Origin: an uncultured Anaerolineales bacterium
GTDB taxonomy: Bacteria; Chloroflexota; Anaerolineae; UBA4142
Direction: 5' to 3'
DNA length: 15,968 nucleotides
Assembly (NCBI GenBank): GCA_903825565.1
Contig: CAIKBD010000346.1
Location: 1-15,968, forward strand
Shown: positions 6,959 through 15,968 of the stretch, piece by piece
How the letters are laid out: the number at the start of each line of letters is the position of its first letter
Position numbering within the stretch: position 1 is the stretch's first letter
Made by a program: the position numbers and the translations under genes
The notes under the pieces: generated by a model
What the model was told of the DNA's origin: nothing
Databases searched by the model: none
Seen by the model: the letters and a program-made list of their open reading frames with translations, nothing else

Positions 6959-7339
6959 CTAACCGATGATCCACTTGTCTGAATGACGAATCATCAAAAC
7001 CAATTTACCGATGATGTTGTCGTAGGTTGTATACAATTCACGTGCCGCTGTGGGTTCAAGATAATTGCATTTAACTGCAAACTCGATCCAAACCTGGGTT
7101 TCATTTGCTTCAGCTTCTGCAATGTTTAGGCAATTCTCAAAAGCACCCTCATATCGTCGTCGGCGCCATGCCTCCGCGATATTCGAGCACACGGCACGTG
7201 ACGAGCGACGAATCTGATCCGTGAGCGAATAGGTTTCCTCTTTTGGAAATTGCTTGGTCAGGGCAAAGATTTCCATCGCGGCATCAAAACCCATCGTGTA
7301 CACTTCTAGGTCACGATGCGTTTTTATTTTATTTGCCAC
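6959..7339 (-). CDS. Four-helix-bundle protein (TIGR02436; 23S rRNA intervening-sequence protein / DGR Avd-like family)
   Basis: The sequence RDLEVYTMGFDAAMEIFALTKQFPKEETYSLTDQIRRSSRAVCSNIAEAWRRRRYEGAFENCLNIAEAEANETQVWIEFAVKCNYL is the canonical signature of this family. The start is uncertain: GTG at 7337-7339 follows AAGGAGA, GTG at 7358-7360 lies inside repeat R2, and ATG (M of MGFD) lies further in. Confidence 0.75.
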   Translation of the reverse strand: MANKIKTHRDLEVYTMGFDAAMEIFALTKQFPKEETYSLTDQIRRSSRAVCSNIAEAWRRRRYEGAFENCLNIAEAEANETQVWIEFAVKCNYLEPTAARELYTTYDNIIGKLVLMIRHSDKWIIG

Positions 7340-7376
7340 GTCTCCTTGTCGCCCTGTCACCGTGTCACCTTGTCCC
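7338..7376. repeat. GACAAGG-heptad repeat arm R2 (reverse orientation), the right terminal inverted repeat of the four-helix-bundle cassette
   Basis: CGTCTCCTTGTCGCCCTGTCACCGTGTCACCTTGTCCCC. Its reverse complement GGGGACAAGGTGACACGGTGACAGGGCGACAAGGAGACG aligns to R1 with 4 mismatches over 34 bp. It overlaps the last 7 codons (RGDKVTR*) of the upstream gene and the 5' end of the four-helix-bundle ORF. Confidence 0.8.
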
Positions 7377-8270: not shown

Positions 8271-10238
8271 CTACTTGTCTTGCTTCAAACTCTGCTTGAT
8301 CTGTTCGCGCAATGCTTCCGCTTCGGCGGAACGTTGCGCGCCGGGATTGACTTGCACGCCGAGGCGCTCTGAGAGCAACATCGCGAGCAAACCTTCCATC
8401 ACATTGCCCGTGCTACCTTGCTGACCATCGCCGCTGTTGATCATCACACGCGGCACGACATCAATGCCGGATTGTTGCACGGCTTCGGCGAAACGATTAA
8501 GCACCGTTTGCGTGACCTGGAATTGCGGTCCGCCGTACGCGCGCACTTGCTCTTCGGTCGCCAACGCTTGCGCGATCCCGATACGCGCCACTTTTTCCGA
8601 TTCCGCTTCGGCGAGCGTGCGAATCTGCGACGCCTGTTGCACCGCGCGTTGATACTCGGCTTTACCCTGGTTCGATTGCACCGTGATGCTCAACTCGGAC
8701 TCGGTGATGTGCTTTTGCATTTCCGCGCGCGCCTGCGCCTCGCGCAGTTCGCGTTCCTTGACCGCCGCCGTTTCCTGACGCCCGTACGTTTCGACTTGCT
8801 CGGTGGCGATTTGGCGCGAACGCAACTGCATCAAAATCGTTTCGATTTGTTGATCGTTCGCGGGCGAGGTCGGCGTGCCGATCAACACTTCTTCGAGTTG
8901 CAGATTATAGTGCTGGAATTTTTCCTGCATCTCCTGGCTCGCGATTTGCTGAATCATACTGCGTTCCTGGATCAGTTGAATCAGCGTGCGCGTCTGCGCG
9001 ATGTTCTTGAAATACGCCGACACCATCGGGTCGAGGGTTTGCTCGACGAGGCGTTTAATGTCGCCGAACCGTTGAATGACGAGCGGCGCTTTTTGGTAAT
9101 CAATGTGAATCACGACCGAGAGCGGGAGCGATGGCTCGAACGCATCTTTGGTGATGAGCGACACTTCGGCGAGATTTTCGTCGAGCCGATGCGAGCCGAC
9201 CTCACTGCGAATCCATTTCAAAATAATGTTCGTCGTCGGCACCATAATCACTTTGCCGGCGTAGGTGTTGAACGCATACTTGCCGGGCAGTAACGCTTCG
9301 CTCCACACGCCGCGCTTGCCGCGCTCGACCATCTCACCGTGCCGATACTCTTTGCCGGACAAGTCTGCGCCGAGTTCGCCGGTGTACGACACGACCACGC
9401 CAACATTGCCGACTTCGACAATCGTCTTTTTGATCATTTCGACAGTAGCGAAAAAGCGATTGATATAGTACGTGCCTTCGACCAGCACTTGGAGTTGCCG
9501 CCCGCGCAAACCGTTTGCCGCCAAGAATTTATCGGCGTCTTGGAAATTGTTGTGATACGTCTCCGCGTCCGCCGGCTTGTCGCCGACGATGGGCGCGATG
9601 ATTTCGCCTTGCGGCAAACTGGGCCCATCGTGCACCGTGACGATGCCGACGAGATCATCCGTGTCCTTGATCACGACCGGGCGAAAGCCGTTGCGCTCGG
9701 CGATCACTTCCGCCATCTTGCGAATGACGTCGGCTTCGTCGCGGTTGAGCGGCAGAGAAAACACGCGCTCTTCGGTGATGACGACGAACTGCATCAGGTT
9801 GATCGCGTATGTGCCTTCGCGCAAAATCCGGCGTTGTGGACCGCGTTGCCCGTCGTTGGCAAGAAATGTTTCGACATCCTGGAAATCGCTCACCGTCGCG
9901 TTCGACGCGAGAACCTGGGTCGGATCGAGTTGCTTGCCGTCGCGCGCAAACACATAGCCGATTTTCCCTTGCGTGATCGTGACGAGCGGCGCGATGTGGA
10001 CGTGGTACTGAATCGGCATGAGGTAATGCAAACCGCCGCGCAAAACGTGCGCCTGGTAGCCGGCTTCGCCCGCGAGTGCGATAAATCCGGACTTGAGCGA
10101 ACCCTTGCCGCTGATGCGCTTTTCGACAATGCCGATGCGGCTGTTCGGGATGAAACGAAAACCGGACAGCGCGATCAGCACGACGCAGATGAGCAAGATG
10201 GCGAATGTAAAACCGAGCAGTGGCAGAATGACGTTCAT
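8271..10238 (-). CDS. Flotillin-family SPFH/band-7 protein (YqiK / FloT-like)
   Basis: 655 aa from MNVILPLLGF, the ATG at 10236-10238, with AAGGAGA SD 5 nt upstream. It has an N-terminal TM anchor and an SPFH domain. The long C-terminal flotillin-type coiled coil shows EA-repeat character (AVKERELREAQARAEMQK...AEAESEKVARIGIAQALATEEQVRAYGG). Confidence 0.9.
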   Translation of the reverse strand: MNVILPLLGFTFAILLICVVLIALSGFRFIPNSRIGIVEKRISGKGSLKSGFIALAGEAGYQAHVLRGGLHYLMPIQYHVHIAPLVTITQGKIGYVFARDGKQLDPTQVLASNATVSDFQDVETFLANDGQRGPQRRILREGTYAINLMQFVVITEERVFSLPLNRDEADVIRKMAEVIAERNGFRPVVIKDTDDLVGIVTVHDGPSLPQGEIIAPIVGDKPADAETYHNNFQDADKFLAANGLRGRQLQVLVEGTYYINRFFATVEMIKKTIVEVGNVGVVVSYTGELGADLSGKEYRHGEMVERGKRGVWSEALLPGKYAFNTYAGKVIMVPTTNIILKWIRSEVGSHRLDENLAEVSLITKDAFEPSLPLSVVIHIDYQKAPLVIQRFGDIKRLVEQTLDPMVSAYFKNIAQTRTLIQLIQERSMIQQIASQEMQEKFQHYNLQLEEVLIGTPTSPANDQQIETILMQLRSRQIATEQVETYGRQETAAVKERELREAQARAEMQKHITESELSITVQSNQGKAEYQRAVQQASQIRTLAEAESEKVARIGIAQALATEEQVRAYGGPQFQVTQTVLNRFAEAVQQSGIDVVPRVMINSGDGQQGSTGNVMEGLLAMLLSERLGVQVNPGAQRSAEAEALREQIKQSLKQDK

Positions 10239-10261
10239 CGTGATCTCCTTCTTCAATGAGC

Positions 10262-10328
10262 GGGAAAGGGGGTGAGAGGGAGGGTGGGGGATTTTCTCCC
10301 CCTCACCTTGTCTCCCACCTTCCCCCTC
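10262..10328. repeat. G-rich / C-rich imperfect inverted repeat R4 containing a CCTTGTC unit
   Basis: GGGAAAGGGGGTGAGAGGGAGGGTGGGGGA tttt CTCCCCCTCACCTTGTCTCCCACCTTCCCCCTC. It lies in the intergenic region between the VWA gene stop and the flotillin start, so it may be a terminator or structured RNA. Confidence 0.5.
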
Positions 10329-10332
10329 GCTA

Positions 10333-12018
10333 TCAAAAGTACGTTGACAGTATTTTATACAACTTGCGAATTGTCTCCGGGTCGGCGCGGCGGGCGAATC
10401 CGCCGGTCGTTTCCGCCAGCGTGTTGAGCACGTTCCAATCGGCGTCGTTGCCGTAGCCGATGCAAAAGATCACCACCGGCACGCCGGTCTGGTTGGTGCG
10501 CTTGATCTTTTGCGCGAGCGCGTTCAAATTCGTTTGCGACGAATTTTCGATCCCGTCGGTCATCACCAGAATTGCGTTGATGCGGTCGCGTTCGTTGCGC
10601 TTTTGCAGATCGTCGTACGCGTACTGCACGGCATCGAGCAAAGCGGTTTGCCCGCTTGCGCGCAATCCGCTCACTTGCGTTTTGAGCGCGGCGCGTTGCT
10701 TGCTCACATCTTGCGGCGCGACGGCGTTATACACCCGGTTCGAGAATGGCACCAAGCCCACGCGATCCCGGTCGCCCTGCACTTGATCGAGAAAGGTGTT
10801 GAGCGCGTCTACGGCTTGCGTCAACTTGTTTTGCTCGCCCATACTGCCGGACGTATCCGCGATGAGATAAATATTCGCGGGGCGTTTTGCCAAGTACCAC
10901 ACCGCTTGCACTTGTTCGATGATCGCCGGGTTTGGCATTTGTAGCGTCGTCTGCGGTTGCGCCGGGTCAACGCCGTTCGCCGTTTTGATCGGCGACGCCG
11001 GATCGTCAAGCCGCAAGTTCAAATCCACCGGGCGATAGCCGGCTTGCAAAATCAATTTTTGCGTTTCGGACGCCAAGAGAAAATCGCGCAAGCGGCGATA
11101 CGTGAGCCGCTGATCGTTTGTGAGCGTCGGCTGTTCGAGCAGGGCAAGGGGATGATCCTGCCACAAAGTTCCTTCGACGGGATAGATCGCAACGAGTTTT
11201 TGCGCCGACTTGGTGTTGAAATAAATGACCATCTGCTCGGAAACGATGAATGCGTCGAGGTAACTGCGACCGCTTTTGAGAACCTGGTCAATCGTTGCGG
11301 CTTCGCCTTCGCCGTAATAGCGCACCGTTTTTTCGAGCGCGGCGACGTAATCGAGCGTCGCGCGATTTTGCAGATCGTCTTCGGTGAGGTTGCGCGTTTT
11401 GTTCGCGCCGGCGTAAAATTCAGCGAGCGTCGCGAGTAAGCCGCTGGCGGAACTGGTGGACGGGTGGCTCCATTTGAAATTCGGATCGCTCCGCGCTTTG
11501 GTCAACAAATCTTTCCAGCCGATTTGTTTTTGTGGATGTCCGAGTACTTGCGCGACCTCGTTCCACATTGCGATCACGACCGGCGTCACGGCGAAGCGTG
11601 TTGCTTCGCCGACAAGTGGGCGATCCAACCCGGCGTCAATTTGCGCGAGCCACAGCGACGAGTCGGGGTTGATCGCCGTGAATTTGCCGGCGCGCGCTTG
11701 CTCGACAATGTCTGCGGCGTCCAGCTTGGTCGCGTTGATTTTCATCGGCAAGCCGGACGGGGTTTTGTAATTCGCCTTGTTGAAACGCGCGACCAGGTCT
11801 TGCATCAGCGCGTCCTTTTCCGGCGAGTAGGCGAGATCGAGCGTGGCGGTTTGCGGCGCAGGTGTGGCGGAAGCGTCGTTGTTCAACAGCATGAACACGC
11901 CGGCGATGCCGCACATTGCCGCGCCGATGCCGATTACGACGACGACGACGGCAAGCAAAGCGCAACCGTTCGCTTTATTCAGGGCAGGATTTTTTGGCGC
12001 ACGTTTATTTTTTGGCAT
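10333..12018 (-). CDS. Membrane-anchored VWA (von Willebrand factor type A) domain protein with an N-terminal periplasmic-binding-like domain
   Basis: Start MPKNKRAPKNP at the ATG 12016-12018. It has one TM helix, ALLAVVVVVIGIGAAMCGIAGVFMLL. A ~330-aa extracytoplasmic domain follows. The C-terminal VWA domain has the MIDAS motif IYLIADTSGSMGEQNKL...TALLDAV...LVMTDGIENS. The track ORF starts at a GTG 4 codons upstream. Confidence 0.8.
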   Translation of the reverse strand: MPKNKRAPKNPALNKANGCALLAVVVVVIGIGAAMCGIAGVFMLLNNDASATPAPQTATLDLAYSPEKDALMQDLVARFNKANYKTPSGLPMKINATKLDAADIVEQARAGKFTAINPDSSLWLAQIDAGLDRPLVGEATRFAVTPVVIAMWNEVAQVLGHPQKQIGWKDLLTKARSDPNFKWSHPSTSSASGLLATLAEFYAGANKTRNLTEDDLQNRATLDYVAALEKTVRYYGEGEAATIDQVLKSGRSYLDAFIVSEQMVIYFNTKSAQKLVAIYPVEGTLWQDHPLALLEQPTLTNDQRLTYRRLRDFLLASETQKLILQAGYRPVDLNLRLDDPASPIKTANGVDPAQPQTTLQMPNPAIIEQVQAVWYLAKRPANIYLIADTSGSMGEQNKLTQAVDALNTFLDQVQGDRDRVGLVPFSNRVYNAVAPQDVSKQRAALKTQVSGLRASGQTALLDAVQYAYDDLQKRNERDRINAILVMTDGIENSSQTNLNALAQKIKRTNQTGVPVVIFCIGYGNDADWNVLNTLAETTGGFARRADPETIRKLYKILSTYF

Positions 12019-12054
12019 TCCGTTTTTCACTCGTTCCGCTTTACGTTTTACGCT

Positions 12055-13242
12055 CTATCGCCCTTTGATATTCAGATCAAACCAGCGCCGCAGGGCTTGC
12101 AACGTATCCCGATCCGGCGAGCGCATCCGCGCCGGACTTTCCACTTTGGGTTTGGCGCCTTGCCCTTGCCATTTCACGAACAAGCTGTCGGCGGTGGCGA
12201 TGGAGACTTCGGCGTTTGCCGGGCGAAAGCCGCGTTGCGCCGCCAGGGTTTGAAGCGGCGCGGAAAGCAAAAATTTTTCAAACTGGATCGCCGCGTTCTT
12301 TTCCGCCGCGCTGGTTTCGGGTCCCATCCAAATCGTGAACGGAAAATCGAACCAGGTCAAATATTTCGGATACACGATCACGAGCGGGTCCGCCCAGCGC
12401 GTTTGGATGCCGCTCATGTTCACGAGCAGATCGCTTTCGAGCAACTGCCCGCCGTCGCCGACCGAGGAGCCGAACAGCGCCAGGTCTTCGACCGTGTACG
12501 AACTGAGCGAAGAGAAATCGGTGACGGCGCCCATCAACTCTTTGAGCCACGCTTGGAATTTGGGGTTGGTTACATCTTCGGTGGCGATGCTTGCTTTGTC
12601 ATAGTACTCCCCTGCCGCCGACACCATCGCCAGCAAACCCGCCGCGTTCTTGTTCGGGTTCGGTACGATCAATTTGAAATAGCCCCATTTCGGATCGCCG
12701 CCTAGTTCGGGCCATCCCCCTTTGGCGATTGCCGCGTCGTGTACGGTTTTCCAATTGACGTTGCCCTGCCCAAACTTTTTTTCGAGCGTGTCAAAGCGCG
12801 ATTTGTAAATGCCCCACGCGAACAGCGAGGTGACGAGCGGGCGCGCGCGATATTCGCCATCGGTCAAGAAAATGTCGCGCCCCAGTTTCTCGCTTTGCGT
12901 CGCATTGACCAGTTCGACGAGATAGCGGCTGTCAGGAATCCATGCGGTTGGCACCGGGTTGAATTCGCCGCGATCCCATTTGCCGAGCGCGGTTACACTG
13001 TCCATCGGCGTCACGCTCACTACGATTGTCCGTCCGTCGAGCGTACGTTTCTCGGCGTTGAATTTTTGCGCCGCGTCTTGCACCCAGGGTTCGATGGGCA
13101 ACGCCGAAACCACGCGCACCGAAATTGGTTGCGCGGTGGGATTCGGCACACTCCCGCTAATTTGCGAAAGCAAAAACGAAACGCCGACGATGAGGAGCGC
13201 GAGCAGAACGACGGCGAAGAAAATGAGTCTTGTGCGATTCAT
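12055..13242 (-). CDS. Membrane-anchored extracytoplasmic solute-binding-like protein (PBP-fold), paralogous in architecture to the N-terminal half of the VWA protein
   Basis: ATG at 13240-13242. It has an N-terminal TM anchor, LIFFAVVLLALLIVGVSFLL, and a ~370-aa secreted domain with alternating beta-alpha character (VVSVTPMDS..., LIVPNPNKNAAGLLAMVSAAGEYY...). There is a 36-nt gap to the VWA gene, so they are probably co-transcribed. Confidence 0.6.
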   Translation of the reverse strand: MNRTRLIFFAVVLLALLIVGVSFLLSQISGSVPNPTAQPISVRVVSALPIEPWVQDAAQKFNAEKRTLDGRTIVVSVTPMDSVTALGKWDRGEFNPVPTAWIPDSRYLVELVNATQSEKLGRDIFLTDGEYRARPLVTSLFAWGIYKSRFDTLEKKFGQGNVNWKTVHDAAIAKGGWPELGGDPKWGYFKLIVPNPNKNAAGLLAMVSAAGEYYDKASIATEDVTNPKFQAWLKELMGAVTDFSSLSSYTVEDLALFGSSVGDGGQLLESDLLVNMSGIQTRWADPLVIVYPKYLTWFDFPFTIWMGPETSAAEKNAAIQFEKFLLSAPLQTLAAQRGFRPANAEVSIATADSLFVKWQGQGAKPKVESPARMRSPDRDTLQALRRWFDLNIKGR

Positions 13243-13256
13243 AAGGTTGTCTCTGT

Positions 13257-13329
13257 TGACAAGGTGACAAGGAGACAGGGAGACACGGAGCGATCACCTT
13301 GTCACCTTGTCTCCGTGTCTCCTTGCCTT
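13257..13329. repeat. Solo palindromic GACAAGG-heptad element R5
   Basis: Left arm GACAAGGTGACAAGGAGACAGGGAGACACGGAG, spacer CGATCA, right arm CCTTGTCACCTTGTCTCCGTGTCTCCTTGCCTTG. The left arm is about 28/33 identical to R1. The order of the complementary segments is A-B-A'-B', so the pairing is imperfect or pseudoknot-capable. It sits between the PspA stop and the start of the PBP-like gene. Confidence 0.8.
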
Positions 13330-13339
13330 GTGTTGCGGA

Positions 13340-14017
13340 TTACGCTAATCCCAATTTTTTCTTCCGTTCCGCCAACTGCGTGTCGAGCGTGTGGCGTTCG
13401 AGCAGTTCGTCCATTTGCGTGTCGAGCCGCGATGCTTGCATTTCGGCGCGCGCGCTGGCTTTGTCGAGGCGTCCGCGAATGCTTTCCGCCATGCGCGCCA
13501 CGTCTTGATCGCCCGAACCCATCAGATTATCGAGCGATTGCATCGTCTTCGCCGTCAACTCTTTCGACTTGGCGAGATCAAGCAGGGCTTGCATTTCCTC
13601 GCGTTCTTGCTTGACGGTGGTCAGTTTCGCTTCGAGTTTCAGTTTGGCATCGAGCAATTTTTGGTACTCGGACTGTTGGCGCTCGTACTGCGACTTGTAT
13701 GTTTCGGCGAGCCGCGCGGTCGAATTCAATTTGCTCTGCGCGGCGACGGCGAGTTCTTCTCTGCCTTCCTTCAACATCAAGTCAATGTTGCGATCCAACT
13801 CGGCGGCTTTGTCAGCGAAATCGTCCCATTTGCGTTTGAGCGTTTTCACTTCGCCGCCGATGGTTGCCGCGGCGTCTTCCAGGTCTTCGAGATTGTTTTC
13901 AACCTGGCGGATGTACTGATCGATCACCGCAAGCGAATTTTTCTTGAGCGCCTCATCCACGAGCGCGTGCAAATTTGCCGCGATGAGCGTTTGCACTTTT
14001 TCGATTAAACTAGCCAT
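13340..14017 (-). CDS. pspA: PspA/IM30 family protein (phage shock protein A / Vipp1 / LiaH-like)
   Basis: 225 aa from MASLIEKVQTLIAANLHALVDEALKK, the ATG at 14015-14017, with AAGGAGGAA SD 4 nt upstream. The all-helical coiled coil carries the family N-terminal amphipathic helix and the conserved ...KRKWDDFADKA...LAKSKELTAKT... layout. Confidence 0.9.
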   Translation of the reverse strand: MASLIEKVQTLIAANLHALVDEALKKNSLAVIDQYIRQVENNLEDLEDAAATIGGEVKTLKRKWDDFADKAAELDRNIDLMLKEGREELAVAAQSKLNSTARLAETYKSQYERQQSEYQKLLDAKLKLEAKLTTVKQEREEMQALLDLAKSKELTAKTMQSLDNLMGSGDQDVARMAESIRGRLDKASARAEMQASRLDTQMDELLERHTLDTQLAERKKKLGLA

Positions 14018-14057
14018 TGGGTTCCTCCTTGTTTTGAATCTGGCGCAATTATAACAT

Positions 14058-14066
14058 CGCGCGGCG
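14058..14066 (-). promoter_or_regulatory. Extended -10 element TGTTATAAT upstream of pspA
   Basis: The minus strand reads GATGTTATAATTGCG, about 40 nt upstream of the pspA ATG. It matches the TGnTATAAT consensus and has no good -35. Confidence 0.4.
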
Positions 14067-14099
14067 CGCCAATCCTGACGTGCGGCTGACGGATTGCGG

Positions 14100-14206
14100 T
14101 TACTCGTCCTGATATTCGTTGGGCGCGACGAACAAGCGTCGAATGGCACCGCCCAGACGCACGCCATTCTTCTCGTGCGTCATTCCGATTTTTTCCGCGA
14201 CGCGCT
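14100..14206 (-). pseudogene. Relic 3' end of a GNAT acetyltransferase gene (last ~36 codons, diverged paralogue of the 14631..15146 C-terminus)
   Basis: It translates to QRVAEKIGMTHEKNGVRLGGAIRRLFVAPNEYQDE*. The intact GNAT ends QRVAEKIGMTHEQDVVRPNGAVRRLYVLHADKQDE*. The 33 bp at 14172-14204 (TCGTGCGTCATTCCGATTTTTTCCGCGACGCG) are identical to 14701-14733, and the rest is about 60-65% identical. There is no upstream coding continuation, because an in-frame stop lies at 14258. Confidence 0.65.
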
Positions 14207-14265
14207 GTAAAAAAACAGTCGCCCGTTTCGAATGGTGAAAGCAACACCAAGTGCGATCTCACATC

Positions 14266-14295
14266 GAATCTATGCGACTGTTTTGTCTGCGTCAA
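14266..14295 (-). promoter_or_regulatory. Sigma70-like promoter candidate TTGACG-N18-TAGATT, a duplicate of the promoter at 14573..14601
   Basis: The minus strand reads ATTTGTAAATTGACGCAGACAAAACAGTCGCATAGATTCG. The surrounding ~60 bp are about 75% identical to 14594-14655, sharing TGCGTCAA, TTACAAAT and CGTCTTGCTT. Confidence 0.35.
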
Positions 14296-14316
14296 TTTAC
14301 AAATGAATTGGCAATT

Positions 14317-14532
14317 TTATCGGGCGTCTTGCTTGGTTTTTCTGGCGCGGCGCATCATCTGGGCGAGTGTTGCGACATCCGTATCGGGCAACCAGTTGAA
14401 ACGATCACGCGTGTAATCGCCGTGTCCGGTTTCAAATTGCTGGAGAAACCGAATCATTCCAACGACGCCCAACTCGCGCGTCAGGGCGGCAAGTCCACTC
14501 ACGCGAATCTGTTCCCAAGTCATTGTTGGCAC
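14317..14532 (-). CDS. Small hypothetical protein (71 aa) with its own promoter, sitting between the GNAT gene and the GNAT 3' relic
   Basis: GTG at 14530-14532 is preceded by GGAG at 9-nt spacing; the alternative ATG at 14521-14523 has no SD within range. The protein is MPTMTWEQIRVSGLAALTRELGVVGMIRFLQQFETGHGDYTRDRFNWLPDTDVATLAQMMRRARKTKQDAR. It is not Arg-rich shadow-like and I could not recognise a family. Its 3' end and downstream region are homologous to the GNAT 3' end and downstream region. Confidence 0.45.
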   Translation of the reverse strand: MPTMTWEQIRVSGLAALTRELGVVGMIRFLQQFETGHGDYTRDRFNWLPDTDVATLAQMMRRARKTKQDAR

Positions 14533-14572
14533 GTTTTACCACTCCAAGTTTGGCGAACCTTCGCACACCAGC

Positions 14573-14601
14573 ATCATACCATTGTGTTAATTGTGCGTCA
14601 A
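14573..14601 (-). promoter_or_regulatory. Strong sigma70-like promoter TTGACG-N17-TATGAT driving the 71-aa ORF
   Basis: The minus strand reads AAGTTGACGCACAATTAACACAATGGTATGATGCTGG, and the spacing is exactly 17 bp. It sits about 35 nt upstream of the small-ORF start and immediately downstream of the GNAT stop. Confidence 0.55.
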
Positions 14602-14630
14602 CTTGATTTTACAAATCACGAGCCAGACAA

Positions 14631-15146
14631 TCATTCGTCTTGCTTATCCGCGTGCAGCACATACAACCTTCGCACTGCGCCGTTCGGACGCACCACGTCC
14701 TGCTCGTGCGTCATTCCGATTTTTTCCGCGACGCGTTGCGACGCGCGATTGTCCGGCTCGATCAACGCGACAATGCGCTCCAACTCCAAAACGGTGAACG
14801 CATAGTCGCGAATTGCGCGTGCGATTTCAGTTGCGTACCCGTTGCCCCACACGGGCTTGGCAAAAACATACACCAACTCAATCTCAAGCGCGCCGGCGAT
14901 CTCTTTATCGAGCAAGCCGCAGTGCCCGATGAGCGCGCCGCTCGCCTTTTCGATCACCGGGCACAAATCGAAACGCGGCGGCGGAGCAACTTGCGCGTCT
15001 TGATCAAAAATCGCGATCAACTTTTGATACTCGCGCGGACCGCCCATAAAACGCGTCACGTCGGGATCCGTCCAGAGTGCCGCGAGTGCGGGCGCGTCGT
15101 CAGTGCGGAGTGAGCGCAAAAGCAAGCGAGAGGTTTCGAGGTTCAT
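14631..15146 (-). CDS. GNAT family N-acetyltransferase (RimJ/RimL-like)
   Basis: 171 aa from MNLETSRLLLRSLRTDDAPALAALWTDPDV, the typical RimJ/RimL N-terminus. The acetyl-CoA binding core is present: GHCGLLDKEIAGALEIELVYVFAKPVWGNGYATEIARAIRDYAF. The C-terminal motif is ALIEPDNRASQRVAEKIGM. The track ORF's 21-aa N-terminal extension is not supported. Confidence 0.85.
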   Translation of the reverse strand: MNLETSRLLLRSLRTDDAPALAALWTDPDVTRFMGGPREYQKLIAIFDQDAQVAPPPRFDLCPVIEKASGALIGHCGLLDKEIAGALEIELVYVFAKPVWGNGYATEIARAIRDYAFTVLELERIVALIEPDNRASQRVAEKIGMTHEQDVVRPNGAVRRLYVLHADKQDE

Positions 15147-15218
15147 AATGGATTGGACGCTGACCAACGCGGATTTCTTTTTCAAAGATCGCGGCAGAAC
15201 AACTATCAAACGATTGAA

Positions 15219-15968
15219 CTATCGAACTAGTTTATACCCCCGCCCCCGCACGCTGACCAAATATTTGGGCTTGGCAGGGTCTGGTTCGATTTTGGCGCGT
15301 GCCCGGCTGATCAATTTTTCGATGCGCGCATCGTCCACTTCATCAATGTAATCCTCGCCCCACACGCCTTGCACGATGGCGTACTTGTCGCAGACGTGAT
15401 CTAGGCGACCGTACAAAAACAACAGTAGACGAAACTCGAGATCAGTCAACGCTTCGACTGGTTTGCCCTCGACATACACGTTGCCTGTATTCACGTCAAT
15501 GTCCACGCCGCGCGCGGACGGTTGTTGCACTAAACGCCGCCGCCGTACGAAATCGGCAAACAGTCGCGAGAAAATTTCGCTATCGTCGCCGTCACGCAGG
15601 ATGGATTTGGCGCGCAAACTGCGTCGCGCCGCATTGTGTGTCTCTTCGCCCGGTGTGGCTTGACGAGCGAAACTGGCGTCGAGCAACACCGCTTGTTCCG
15701 CCGGTTTGAGGTCGCGCCAAATTTTTTCGAGTTCGCTTTGCACGTTCGGCTCGTTCACTAAACTTTGTTGGACGAGTTGATGAATGACGCGGTCGCCATG
15801 CGCACCCCGCACCGGTGCGCCGGTTACGCCACCGAGCGCGCCACACACGGCTTGCGCGATCCCAGGATGTCCGTCCGCATTCTCGCGGATAAAAGCGAGA
15901 TCGGCGGCGCTGAACGTGACGCCCTCGCGCGCGGCGAACTGCTCACACAACGTGCGGGTGTCGGCGGC
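15219..15968 (-). CDS. Transcriptional regulator with C-terminal OmpR/PhoB-type winged-helix DNA-binding domain (5'-truncated by the window edge)
   Basis: The C-terminus LTDLEFRLLLFLYGRLDHVCDKYAIVQGVWGEDYIDEVDDARIEKLISRARAKIEPDPAKPKYLVSVRGRGYKLVR is a textbook trans_reg_C domain. The upstream ~150 aa are helical and not a receiver domain. The ORF is open to the window end. Confidence 0.7.
   Translation of the reverse strand, partial: AADTRTLCEQFAAREGVTFSAADLAFIRENADGHPGIAQAVCGALGGVTGAPVRGAHGDRVIHQLVQQSLVNEPNVQSELEKIWRDLKPAEQAVLLDASFARQATPGEETHNAARRSLRAKSILRDGDDSEIFSRLFADFVRRRRLVQQPSARGVDIDVNTGNVYVEGKPVEALTDLEFRLLLFLYGRLDHVCDKYAIVQGVWGEDYIDEVDDARIEKLISRARAKIEPDPAKPKYLVSVRGRGYKLVR

What the first reader, a model, noticed from the sequence alone, without database searches (positions are those of the whole stretch)
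14100..14735. att-like signature at the GNAT 3' end: 33-bp identical core, diverged homologous flanks, duplicated promoter, and an orphan 71-aa ORF in between
The last ~36 codons of the intact GNAT (14631-14735) are repeated at 14100-14206. The two copies are diverged at about 60-65% at nucleotide and amino-acid level, except for a perfectly identical 33-bp segment: 14172-14204 equals 14701-14733. An identical core with diverged homologous arms is the pattern left by site-specific integration into the 3' end of a protein-coding gene. The incoming element supplies a replacement 3' end and the displaced original end remains as a relic. Gene conversion is the alternative. A second block is also duplicated: 14287-14345 versus 14594-14655 are about 75% identical and carry a TTGACG -35 with TTACAAAT and CGTCTTGCTT. 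One copy forms a strong TTGACG-N17-TATGAT promoter for the 71-aa ORF. The other forms a weaker TTGACG-N18-TAGATT promoter reading toward pspA. The ~500-bp segment between the cores holds only the orphan small ORF. So this is either a degenerate or miniature integrated element, or a duplication scar that rewired pspA transcription. A GNAT with a tightly linked small ORF also invites a toxin-antitoxin reading, although the small protein lies downstream and I could not assign it to RHH/DUF1778.
Basis: partly seen in the sequence, partly recalled or inferred. Interest (0 to 1): 0.65.

Follow-up and report, generated by a model that had tools for sequence, protein, structure and literature searches.

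The report
Recombination scar with orphaned PIN-partner gene
Between an acetyltransferase gene and pspA lie the stump of a second acetyltransferase allele and a toxin-antitoxin-like module that has lost its PIN toxin gene; these are ordinary leftovers of gene shuffling in a very variable spot of the genome, not the footprint of a site-specific mobile element.

Summary
The repeat is real. 104 nt of the GNAT 3' end (14635-14738) recur at 14104-14207, with an identical 33-mer at 14172-14204 and 14703-14735.

The att-site reading is not supported.
- The 33-mer encodes the family motif RVAEKIGMTHE. It is 31-33/33 identical among all close GNAT orthologs, so identity between two alleles is expected.
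- The window holds no recombinase or tRNA. The core was found only inside GNAT genes.
- Allele breakpoints in relatives are spread over about 80 nt.

The "orphan" 71-aa ORF belongs to a family of at least 190 proteins. In all other loci examined (10 distinct arrangements) its homolog sits directly after a PIN-domain gene. In the window the PIN gene has been removed in frame. The PIN promoter, ribosome-binding site and first three codons are fused to the small gene.

The interval between the regulator gene and pspA is hypervariable in related Anaerolineae-like metagenome contigs: empty, PIN pair, Phd/ParE-like pair, GNAT plus various cargo. A sister locus shows a GNAT stump made by a simple microhomology deletion.

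pspA has its own promoter region, conserved in all 16 loci. The second "promoter" is not conserved and is followed by a terminator-like hairpin.

Best reading: a deletion or displacement scar, similar to rhs C-terminal displacement. Interest is low to moderate.

The parts
14631..15146 (-). Intact GNAT gene (allele A). 171 aa, RimJ/RimL-type Acetyltransf_3.
   Evidence: Pfam PF13302 E=2.7e-32. Identical protein P0121 on 9 contigs. Orthologs of 171 aa.
14703..14735 (-). Core copy 1. Codons 138-148 of the GNAT, encoding RVAEKIGMTHE.
   Evidence: Exact 33-mer. Gene positions 412-444. At most 1 mismatch to the window core in each of L010, L011, L012, L023, L045 and L046.
14573..14601 (-). Promoter of the former PIN/small-protein operon (TTGACG-17-TATGAT, with TG before the -10 hexamer). 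It now drives the small ORF.
   Evidence: Consensus scan. The same hexamers and spacing lie upstream of the PIN gene in L007, L068, L069 and L001.
14208..14620 (-). Segment derived from a PIN/small-protein module: promoter, ribosome-binding site, first 3 PIN codons, small gene and 3' tail. The left edge is approximate.
   Evidence: Window 14525-14209 aligns to L007 1055-1373 at 73.5% and stops at the T-run. Promoter homology begins about 11 nt after the GNAT stop.
14317..14532 (-). 71-aa gene. PIN start codon plus 2 codons (GTG CCA ACA) are fused in frame at 14524/14523 to the internal Met of the PIN-partner protein. All invariant family residues are kept.
   Evidence: Junction comparison with L007, L068, L069, L070 and L001. 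Family alignment with 17 invariant columns. 190 homologs. No PIN fragment anywhere in the window.
14267..14295 (-). Second promoter-like site (TTGACG-17-TAGATT). Probably not functional for pspA.
   Evidence: Scan, 9 of 12 matches. Hexamers not conserved in L007, L068 or L069. Lies upstream of the hairpin and T-run.
14209..14284 (-). Conserved long hairpin (14212-14284) followed by a run of 7 T (14209-14215). Terminator-like 3' end of the module.
   Evidence: MFE -33.3 kcal/mol, z = -2.3. Consensus fold of window, L007 and L069 gives 25 pairs, 4 with compensatory changes. Also partly present in L068.
14100..14207 (-). Relic of a second GNAT allele (allele B): the last 35 codons plus stop. There is no start codon and no upstream GNAT sequence.
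   Evidence: tblastn to GNAT residues 138-172, 66%. Differences from orthologs are largely synonymous or conservative (IRRLFV vs VRRLYV).
14172..14204 (-). Core copy 2, at the 5' edge of the relic.
   Evidence: Exact 33-mer. 32/33 to every other ortholog.
14035..14095 (-). pspA's own promoter region: direct repeat GTCAGCC (14084-14090) and GTCAGGA (14073-14079), TATAAT (14048-14053), and CCAGATT. It marks the right border of the variable interval.
   Evidence: Conserved in all 16 aligned loci, whatever lies upstream. The relic's stop codon ends about 6 nt before it.
13340..14017 (-). pspA (PspA/IM30 family).
   Evidence: Pfam PF04012 E=1.6e-16. 35 related loci found.
15219..15950 (-). C-terminal part of an AAA_16 / Trans_reg_C regulator gene, cut by the window end. 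It marks the left border of the variable interval.
   Evidence: Pfam PF00486 E=6.2e-16. Full 449-aa gene in L008. Syntenic in L001, L007, L010, L014, L018, L020, L021, L068-L071.

Best explanation
The region is a recombination and deletion scar inside a hypervariable interval. The interval is bounded by a regulator gene (AAA_16/Trans_reg_C) and the conserved pspA promoter.

Three things are superimposed.
1. 14100-14207 is the 3' stump of a second, diverged GNAT allele (B). That allele once lay directly against the pspA promoter. It lost its body by a microhomology deletion, or by displacement when DNA carrying GNAT allele A and its downstream cargo recombined in. The displacement route would use homology on the regulator/GNAT side and an illegitimate joint on the other, as proposed for rhs C-terminal displacement and for Vibrio T6SS orphan immunity arrays.
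2. The DNA between the two GNAT ends is a two-gene PIN/small-protein (toxin-antitoxin-like) module, normally found right after the regulator gene in relatives. Its PIN gene was deleted in frame. The promoter, ribosome-binding site and start codon now express only the small partner protein. That protein is intact and probably still made (inferred).
3. The 33 identical bases are the most conserved stretch of this GNAT family, so two alleles share them without any att function. At most they served as a stretch of identity for ordinary homologous recombination.

Shown: the repeat, the family-wide conservation of the core, the PIN deletion junction, the variability of the interval, the separate pspA promoter, and a deletion-made relic in a sister locus.
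Inferred: the order and exact mechanism of the events, expression of the small protein, and its role as a PIN antagonist.
For: REPEAT AND CORE
- The repeat and the 33-mer are verified.
- Each close ortholog differs from the window's core at no more than 1 of 33 positions. Ortholog pairs share 31-33/33, although the gene bodies are only 80-84% identical between lineages.
- GNATs of other phyla keep 26-28/33.
- L071, at 76% aa identity, keeps 27/33, so the core decays normally with distance.

THE RELIC BEHAVES LIKE AN ORDINARY DIVERGED ALLELE
- The 26 nt after the core match orthologs at 17-20/26, the same range as ortholog pairs (17-23/26).
- Its changes are conservative.
- It is no closer to the window's own GNAT than to L023 or L010.

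NO RECOMBINATION MACHINERY
- No recombinase, transposase or tRNA in 16 kb.
- The conserved 25-mer of the core is absent from viral contigs.
- There is a single core in all other cargo-bearing loci.
- Allele breakpoints lie at about 395, about 412 and about 475 of the gene, so there is no single crossover site.

SMALL PROTEIN AND PIN
- The small-protein gene directly follows a PIN gene, overlapping it by 1-4 nt, in L001-L006, L007, L062, L064, L066, L069 and L070. In L068 the PIN gene is disrupted and a 25-nt gap separates the two.
- PIN scores are above the Pfam cut-off.
- The window's GTGCCAACA|ATGACT junction equals the PIN start fused to the partner's internal Met.

VARIABLE INTERVAL
- States seen: empty, PIN pair, Phd/ParE-like pair, and GNAT plus a 163-aa, 410-aa, DUF218 or HD cargo gene.
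- Three variants come from one metagenome.

PRECEDENT AND PROMOTER
- The GNAT relic in L007 arose by a clean deletion in an L071-like DUF218-GNAT arrangement.
- The pspA promoter region is conserved in 16 loci.
- Literature patterns: PMC2935791 and PMC5361080.
Against: - No contig with an intact allele B next to pspA was found. None of 120 GNAT homologs has a tail close to the relic's: the best is 54% over 24 aa. The resident allele is therefore inferred, not observed.
- The distal 49 nt of the relic are more diverged (16-27/49) than any ortholog pair (30-44/49), while its core is perfect. A recent crossover or gene conversion limited to the core would explain this contrast better than conservation alone.
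- Third-codon positions are invariant over 13 consecutive codons spanning the core in five orthologs (shuffle P=0.004). This hints at some nucleotide-level constraint or homogenisation. Only about three independent lineages contribute.
- The relic starts exactly at a conserved block.
- The three collinear words shared by the two intergenic blocks remain unexplained.
Confidence: 0.6

Rival explanations
1. Homologous (RecA-type) insertion of a circular DNA fragment at the conserved block. This is the mechanism proposed for rhs C-terminal displacement. A circle carrying core + tail A + the PIN-module remnant crossed over with the resident GNAT inside the 33-bp identity. That would place the new tail and cargo after the gene body and push the old tail (B), still headed by a core copy, downstream.
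For: - The layout is exactly what a Campbell-type insertion predicts: body, core, tail A, cargo, core, tail B.
- The core is the longest invariant run in the gene, 26 nt across five orthologs. It is therefore the most likely place for a crossover between alleles about 80% identical.
- In L023 an allele switch occurs within about 15 nt of the core.
- The rhs precedent has identical cores and dissimilar tips.
- A perfect relic core next to a strongly diverged distal tail fits a crossover at the core.
Against: - 33 bp is near the lower limit for efficient homologous recombination (own knowledge).
- No circular form and no second example of a core-bounded unit was seen. Other cargo loci have one core only.
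- The cargo's native position in relatives is after the regulator gene, not after a GNAT tail.
- Other breakpoints lie outside the core.
Confidence: 0.15
2. Site-specific integration. The 33-mer would be an att core recognised by a tyrosine or serine recombinase encoded elsewhere. The roughly 530-bp unit between the cores would be a degenerate, non-autonomous integrated element carrying a replacement 3' end for its target gene.
For: - An identical core flanks the unit, and the unit supplies a complete replacement 3' end.
- Toxin-antitoxin modules are typical cargo of mobile elements (own knowledge).
- There is unusual synonymous-site conservation over the core (P=0.004).
Against: - No recombinase in the 16-kb window, and none called in the genes flanking the locus in L008.
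- No tRNA.
- The core is never found outside GNAT genes.
- The other cargo variants lack a second core.
- Breakpoints are not at one site.
- The core sequence is explained by a protein motif conserved across phyla.
- The module's ends match its usual chromosomal setting after the regulator gene.
Confidence: 0.05
3. Old tandem duplication of the GNAT 3' end within this lineage, followed by divergence of the non-functional copy. The core would be kept identical by recent gene conversion between the two copies 531 bp apart.
For: - The copies are direct repeats at short distance.
- Perfect identity is confined to one block, with sharp divergence beside it.
- A second set of short shared words lies nearby.
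Against: - The relic is not closer to the window's own GNAT than to orthologs of other lineages: 17/26 vs 19-20/26 in the proximal part, and 59% vs 63.5% over the whole tail.
- Its substitutions look like those of a gene under selection, being synonymous or conservative.
- The DNA between the copies is an unrelated module with its own history.
- Conversion between copies 60% identical outside a 33-bp block is unlikely (own knowledge).
Confidence: 0.08
4. The GNAT and the 71-aa protein form a GNAT-type toxin-antitoxin pair.
For: The two genes are adjacent on the same strand, 98 nt apart.
Against: - The GNAT is a RimJ/RimL-type Acetyltransf_3 protein.
- Its orthologs lack the small gene in L010, L011, L012, L023, L045, L046 and L071.
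- The small protein lies downstream with its own promoter.
- It matches no RHH/DUF1778 or any other Pfam, NCBIfam or PADLOC family.
- In every other locus examined it is paired with a PIN gene.
Confidence: 0.02

Closest known systems
rhs C-terminal displacement: dissociated tips downstream of rhs genes (Jackson et al. 2009, PMC2935791)
   Same: A complete gene is followed by a truncated copy. The truncated copy begins with the conserved end of the core and carries a different C-terminal tail. The conserved part is identical within the locus and the tails are dissimilar. Unrelated small genes lie in between. No dedicated recombinase is involved (searches compared).
   Different: The gene here is a small housekeeping-type acetyltransferase, not a polymorphic toxin. 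The tails are 24-residue ends of the same fold, not toxin domains. There is one displaced end, not an array. The retained conserved part is only 33 bp.
Orphan immunity genes left by sequential displacement in Vibrio cholerae T6SS clusters, attributed to homology-facilitated illegitimate recombination (Kirchberger et al. 2017, PMC5361080)
   Same: A strain-variable interval lies behind a conserved anchor. The toxic partner is lost while the protective partner is kept. Alleles are mosaic, with breakpoints wherever homology allows (one search compared).
   Different: The orphan here lost its toxin by an internal in-frame deletion, not by displacement. The pair is a cytoplasmic PIN-type module, not a secreted effector with its immunity protein.
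Type II toxin-antitoxin modules with a PIN (VapC-like) toxin, and orphan antitoxins
   Same: PIN-domain gene with translationally overlapping small partner, spread over unrelated genomic contexts; toxin gene decays or is deleted first (L068, window).
   Different: The gene order is reversed: PIN first, partner second. The partner matches no known antitoxin family or solved fold. Neither toxicity nor neutralisation has been tested.
Integrative elements that insert into the 3' end of a gene and supply a replacement end (attL/attR with an identical core)
   Same: A duplicated 3' end with an identical block lies at the boundary of inserted DNA.
   Different: No integrase. No second occurrence of the unit or of the core outside GNAT genes. 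The core is a family-wide coding motif. Breakpoints in relatives are not fixed.

Membership tests
Integrase-mediated integrated element (att sites) | Identical core sequence at both ends of the inserted DNA | tested here: met
   33-mer at 14172-14204 and 14703-14735. The same 33-mer is 31-33/33 identical among all close GNAT orthologs, so this feature does not discriminate.
Integrase-mediated integrated element (att sites) | Tyrosine or serine recombinase in or next to the element | tested here: not met
   Pfam scans of the 14 main ORFs of the 16-kb window show no recombinase or transposase. None is called in L008 either.
Integrase-mediated integrated element (att sites) | Same crossover point in independent events; filled and empty sites differ exactly at the core | tested here: not met
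   Allele breakpoints lie at gene positions 393-400 (L023), 411/412 (window relic) and about 475 (L012 vs L046). Cargo-bearing relatives have a single core. No precise empty site was found.
Integrase-mediated integrated element (att sites) | Core (attP) present in a free or otherwise located copy of the element | tested here: not met
   0 matches of the conserved 25-mer in viral contigs. In 71 loci the core occurs only inside GNAT genes. Whole-metagenome and raw-read searches for the core were not possible.
GNAT-toxin / RHH (DUF1778) antitoxin pair | Small RHH/DUF1778 antitoxin gene adjacent to, usually upstream of and overlapping, the GNAT gene | tested here: not met
   The small gene is 98 nt downstream with its own promoter. 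No Pfam hit for it or for 43 relatives.
GNAT-toxin / RHH (DUF1778) antitoxin pair | Conserved co-occurrence of the two genes | tested here: not met
   GNAT orthologs lack the small gene in L010, L011, L012, L023, L045, L046 and L071. The small gene is paired with PIN elsewhere.
PIN-type (VapC-like) toxin-antitoxin module | PIN-domain toxin gene | tested here: not met
   The window holds no PIN gene or fragment. Relatives have one: PF01850, 32.2 and 30.2 bits against a cut-off of 23.6. The window holds only the remnant of such a module.
PIN-type (VapC-like) toxin-antitoxin module | Small partner gene in one operon with the toxin, conserved as a pair across contexts | tested here: met
   1-4 nt overlap with the PIN gene in syntenic and unrelated loci. 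Shared promoter and ribosome-binding site.
PIN-type (VapC-like) toxin-antitoxin module | Toxicity of the PIN protein and neutralisation by the partner | not testable with these tools
   Needs expression experiments.
C-terminal displacement / homology-facilitated illegitimate recombination scar | Complete gene followed by a truncated copy that keeps a piece of the conserved region and a different tail | tested here: met
C-terminal displacement / homology-facilitated illegitimate recombination scar | Strain-to-strain variation of tails and downstream cargo, with mosaic alleles | tested here: met
   Five kinds of cargo after the GNAT. Tails are 64-93% identical while bodies are 80-98% identical. 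L023 is a mosaic.
C-terminal displacement / homology-facilitated illegitimate recombination scar | Demonstrated donor and recipient states (intact resident allele before the event) | tested here: inconclusive
   No intact allele B was found among 120 homologs or 35 pspA-anchored loci. A simple deletion origin, as in L007 compared with L071, is equally possible.

The most novel reading that the evidence does not exclude
The conserved block at the GNAT 3' end could be a genuine, recurrently used recombination site. Cargo genes carrying their own GNAT tail would be inserted there, through circular intermediates or a recombinase encoded elsewhere. That would make the GNAT-pspA interval a cassette-acquisition site in these uncultured Anaerolineae-like bacteria. 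The points in favour are the excess synonymous conservation over the core, the allele switch next to the core in L023, and the several different cargo genes behind near-identical GNAT bodies within one metagenome.
Probability: 0.08. Interest if true: 0.6.

Novelty: new member of a known kind. Interest (0 to 1): 0.27.

Why it matters
An "identical core with diverged flanks" at the 3' end of a gene can mimic an att site. Here the core is simply the most conserved coding motif of the family. This is a useful caution for sequence-only screens for integrated elements.

The locus is also a compact, well-resolved example of microevolution in an uncultured lineage:
- a hot spot between a regulator gene and pspA that collects toxin-antitoxin modules and small cargo genes;
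- a PIN toxin gene removed cleanly while its partner stays expressed;
- gene stumps left by microhomology deletions.

The PIN-partner protein family (motif FLQQFETGxGDY, about 73 aa, at least 190 members) matched no entry in the family or structure libraries searched. It could be worth describing as a reverse-order PIN module.

None of this changes current understanding of recombination or of PspA biology.

Tried and rejected
SEARCHES THAT GAVE LITTLE
- A GNAT-based scan of species-representative genomes returned only distant GNATs, at most 43% identical. It gave no orthologous loci.
- A search for an intact gene with the relic's tail failed. The 35-aa query was too short. A padded 47-aa query found no candidates. 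A local comparison with 120 homologs gave at best 54% over the tail.
- Rfam found nothing in 13900-15300.
- The small protein matched nothing in Pfam, NCBIfam, PADLOC, PDB sequences or Foldseek against PDB. The AlphaFold model is three helices at pLDDT 77.

IDEAS TESTED AND DROPPED OR LEFT OPEN
- A standard local alignment of the second block was not significant (P about 0.04). Only a chained-word test was. I could not explain the block. The 10-mer AAGCAAGACG in the small gene appears to derive from the family's own C-terminal codons, so part of the match may be coincidence.
- A possible relic of the regulator gene's last codons (CTCGTGA, 14616-14622) is too short to claim.
- I first counted the L007 relic as an independent breakpoint at the core. 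L071 showed it is a plain deletion from the GNAT start codon to just after the core.
- I considered neutral decay of a copy of allele A as the origin of the relic. It is rejected because the core has no change while the tail has about 40% changes, and because the relic shows no special affinity to allele A.
Full report
LAYOUT

All genes in 13300-15968 lie on the minus strand. In gene order they are:
- the 3' part of an AAA_16/Trans_reg_C regulator gene (15219-15950, cut by the window end);
- a 171-aa RimJ/RimL-type GNAT (14631-15146, PF13302, E=2.7e-32);
- a 71-aa ORF (14317-14532);
- a GNAT 3' fragment (14100-14207);
- pspA (13340-14017, PF04012).

CHECK OF THE OBSERVATION

The repeat of the GNAT 3' end is real.
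- 14104-14207 and 14635-14738 are 73% identical over 104 nt.
- A 33-mer is identical at 14172-14204 and 14703-14735. No shuffle gave two copies.
- The downstream copy is in frame to a stop codon.
- Behind the core the copies share 44/75 nt and 12/24 residues.
- The core is not flanked by diverged homology on both sides. Upstream of it the downstream copy joins unrelated sequence. The identity run therefore begins where the fragment begins.

The two promoter-like sites exist, both with 17-nt spacers. Two sites against 1.2 expected is not significant in itself.

The second "duplicated block" is 57% identical, not 75%. It still holds three collinear exact words of 8, 9 and 10 nt. No chain that long appeared in 3000 shuffles or 819 genomic controls.

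THE SMALL ORF IS AN ORPHANED PARTNER OF A PIN GENE

The ORF has 190 homologs of about 73 aa, mostly from Anaerolineales-like metagenome contigs.

In every other locus I could read, it directly follows a PIN-domain gene.
- This holds for the syntenic loci L001-L006, L007, L069 and L070, with a 1-4 nt overlap. In L068 the PIN gene looks disrupted and a 25-nt gap separates the two.
- It also holds in unrelated settings: L062 (beside a HicAB pair), L064, and L066 (inside a transketolase cluster).
- The PIN assignment passes the Pfam cut-off: 32.2 and 30.2 bits against 23.6.

The deletion junction is clear.
- In L007, L068 and L069 the operon reads TTGACG-N17-TATGAT, a ribosome-binding site, then GTG/ATG CCA/CCG ACA (C/T)T(C/G) TAT CTT GAT... 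for PIN. The partner gene starts ATG AT. AC. CAA CCA ATG AC.
- The window reads the same promoter and ribosome-binding site, then GTG CCA ACA | ATG ACT TGG GAA CAG.
- So PIN codons 4 to the end, and the first five codons of the partner, were removed in frame.
- No PIN fragment remains anywhere in the window.
- All 17 invariant residues of the family are kept.

The protein matches no family or solved structure. It is modelled as three helices.

Homology with L007 runs from the small gene through its 3' tail and stops at 14209, the end of a T-run. The tail forms a long hairpin, conserved in L007 and L069 and partly in L068. It has 25 pairs, 4 of them with compensatory changes. The segment from about 14620 to 14208 is therefore one module, from promoter to terminator, minus its toxin gene.

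THE INTERVAL IS A HOT SPOT

I anchored on PspA and retrieved 35 related metagenome loci. I mapped them with tblastn. The states found between the regulator gene and pspA are:

| State | Loci |
|---|---|
| Empty | L014, L018, L020, L021 |
| PIN pair | L001-L006, L015, L069 (L068 too; its contig ends before pspA) |
| PIN pair + other genes | L070 |
| PIN pair + DUF218 + GNAT stump + HD | L007 |
| Phd/ParE-like pair | L016, L044 |
| Phd/ParE-like pair + GNAT + 410-aa gene | L010 (L045 has GNAT + 410-aa gene + pspA) |
| GNAT + 163-aa membrane ORF | L012 |
| GNAT + HD | L023 |
| GNAT + DUF218 | L046 |
| DUF218 + GNAT | L071 |

- L012, L045 and L046 come from one metagenome.
- The window's own arrangement recurs identically in L008 and L009 and on three further ENA contigs.
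- The right border of all variants is a conserved pspA promoter region: aatcTGTCAGCC-N4-GTCAGGATT ... TAYAAT ... CCAGATT.
- In the window the relic's stop codon ends about 6 nt before that region. Allele B therefore once abutted it.
- This also shows that pspA does not depend on the TTGACG-17-TAGATT site at 14295->14267. That site is not conserved in relatives and lies upstream of the hairpin and T-run.

IS THE CORE AN ATT SITE?

The core is a conserved coding motif.
- Each close ortholog (L010, L011, L012, L023, L045, L046) differs from the window's 33-mer at no more than 1 position. Ortholog pairs share 31-33/33. The gene bodies are about 80-84% identical between lineages.
- It encodes RVAEKIGMTHE. 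GNATs of other phyla at 30-43% protein identity still keep 26-28/33.
- An ortholog at 76% protein identity (L071) keeps 27/33.
- Identity between two alleles of this clade is therefore expected.

The relic behaves like an ordinary allele.
- In the 26 nt after the core it matches orthologs at 17-20/26, the same range as ortholog pairs.
- Its distal part differs more (16-27/49), but by synonymous or conservative changes: IRRLFV against VRRLYV.
- It is no closer to the window's own GNAT than to L023 or L010. This argues against an in-situ duplication.

Nothing else points to site-specific recombination.
- No recombinase, transposase or tRNA in the window.
- No copy of the core outside GNAT genes.
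- No second core in other cargo-bearing loci.
- Allele breakpoints are scattered. L023 switches parent between gene positions 393 and 400. L012 and L046 diverge from about 475. The core spans 412-444.

A sister locus shows how a stump can arise. L071 carries DUF218-GNAT. L007 carries the same DUF218 followed by the L071-type GNAT tail (...SRDD*). The DNA from the GNAT start codon to just past the core has been cleanly removed, with ATG on both sides of the deletion.

WHAT REMAINS OPEN
- No intact allele B was found. Whether the stump arose by deletion of a second GNAT copy or by displacement during import of allele A with its cargo cannot be decided.
- Third-codon positions are invariant over 13 consecutive codons across the core (P=0.004 by shuffling; five sequences, about three lineages).
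- The relic combines a perfect core with a strongly diverged distal tail.
- Both of the last two points would fit a crossover or conversion at the core. That is the mechanism proposed for rhs C-terminal displacement via circular intermediates. I keep it as the main rival.
- Integrase-mediated integration, an old tandem duplication with conversion, and a GNAT/small-protein toxin-antitoxin pair are each poorly supported.

COMPARISON WITH KNOWN SYSTEMS

The pattern matches two described cases:
- dissociated C-terminal tips of rhs genes (PMC2935791);
- orphan immunity genes left by displacement in Vibrio T6SS clusters, attributed to homology-facilitated illegitimate recombination (PMC5361080).

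Here the pattern involves a housekeeping-type acetyltransferase and a PIN-type module. It is a new example of a known kind of scar.

VERDICT

The att/integration, promoter-rewiring and GNAT-toxin readings are not supported.
- Confidence in the scar-plus-orphaned-partner explanation: about 0.6.
- Confidence that PIN was deleted in frame: about 0.9.
- Confidence that the relic comes from a second allele: about 0.85.
- Interest: 0.27.

Noticed in passing
window 14035-14095 (minus strand); L001, L007, L012-L014, L016-L021, L023, L044-L046: A direct repeat GTCAGCC-N4-GTCAGGA, followed by TAYAAT and CCAGATT, lies upstream of pspA. It is conserved in all 16 related loci, whatever lies upstream. It is plausibly the operator of the neighbouring AAA_16/Trans_reg_C regulator, since winged-helix regulators bind direct repeats.
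   Followed up: partly
window 14209-14284 (minus strand); L007 1299-1375; L069 1119-1195: A roughly 75-nt hairpin (25 pairs, 4 with compensatory changes among 3 sequences) followed by a U-run lies at the 3' end of the PIN/small-protein operon. It has no Rfam match. It could be an elaborate terminator or a small structured RNA.
   Followed up: partly
L001 803-1470; L007 599-1263; L062 1908-2572; L064 2615-3222; L066 2555-3216: A reverse-order two-gene module: a PIN gene followed by an overlapping gene for a helical protein of about 73 aa with the motif FLQQFETGxGDY. The small protein matched no entry in Pfam, NCBIfam, PADLOC, PDB sequences or Foldseek against PDB. The family has at least 190 members.
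   Followed up: partly
L068 1305-1747: The PIN gene next to an intact partner gene looks disrupted. The called product is 138 aa with no Pfam hit on record, its C-terminal part matches in another frame, and a 25-nt gap replaces the usual overlap. This would be a second, independent case of toxin decay with the partner retained.
   Followed up: no
window 14325-14334 and 14638-14647; 14297-14305 and 14608-14616; 14289-14296 and 14594-14601: Three collinear exact words are shared by the region after the small gene and the region after the GNAT gene: AAGCAAGACG, ATTTGTAAA and TTGACGCA in gene sense. They are statistically unexpected and not conserved in relatives. ATTTGTAAAT is nearly palindromic, so an operator or a short conversion patch is possible.
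   Followed up: partly
window 14616-14622: CTCGTGA, just upstream of the module's promoter, resembles the last codons and stop of the regulator gene that precedes this promoter in L068 and L069 (CTCGTTCGTTGA). It may be a few-base relic of a second junction. It is too short to be sure.
   Followed up: partly
window 6959-7360 (minus strand): A 133-aa protein of the 23S rRNA-intervening-sequence family (PF05635, E=1.4e-30) sits between a periplasmic binding-protein gene and an unannotated 286-aa ORF.
   Followed up: no
window 8271-13242 (minus strand): pspA is followed by two paralogous SBP_bac_11-like genes, the second fused to a VWA domain, and then by a 661-aa SPFH/Band 7 protein gene. pspA and the first SBP_bac_11-like gene are syntenic in most related loci. 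In L001 and L008 the VWA-fused gene follows as well. This looks like a membrane-stress gene cluster.
   Followed up: no
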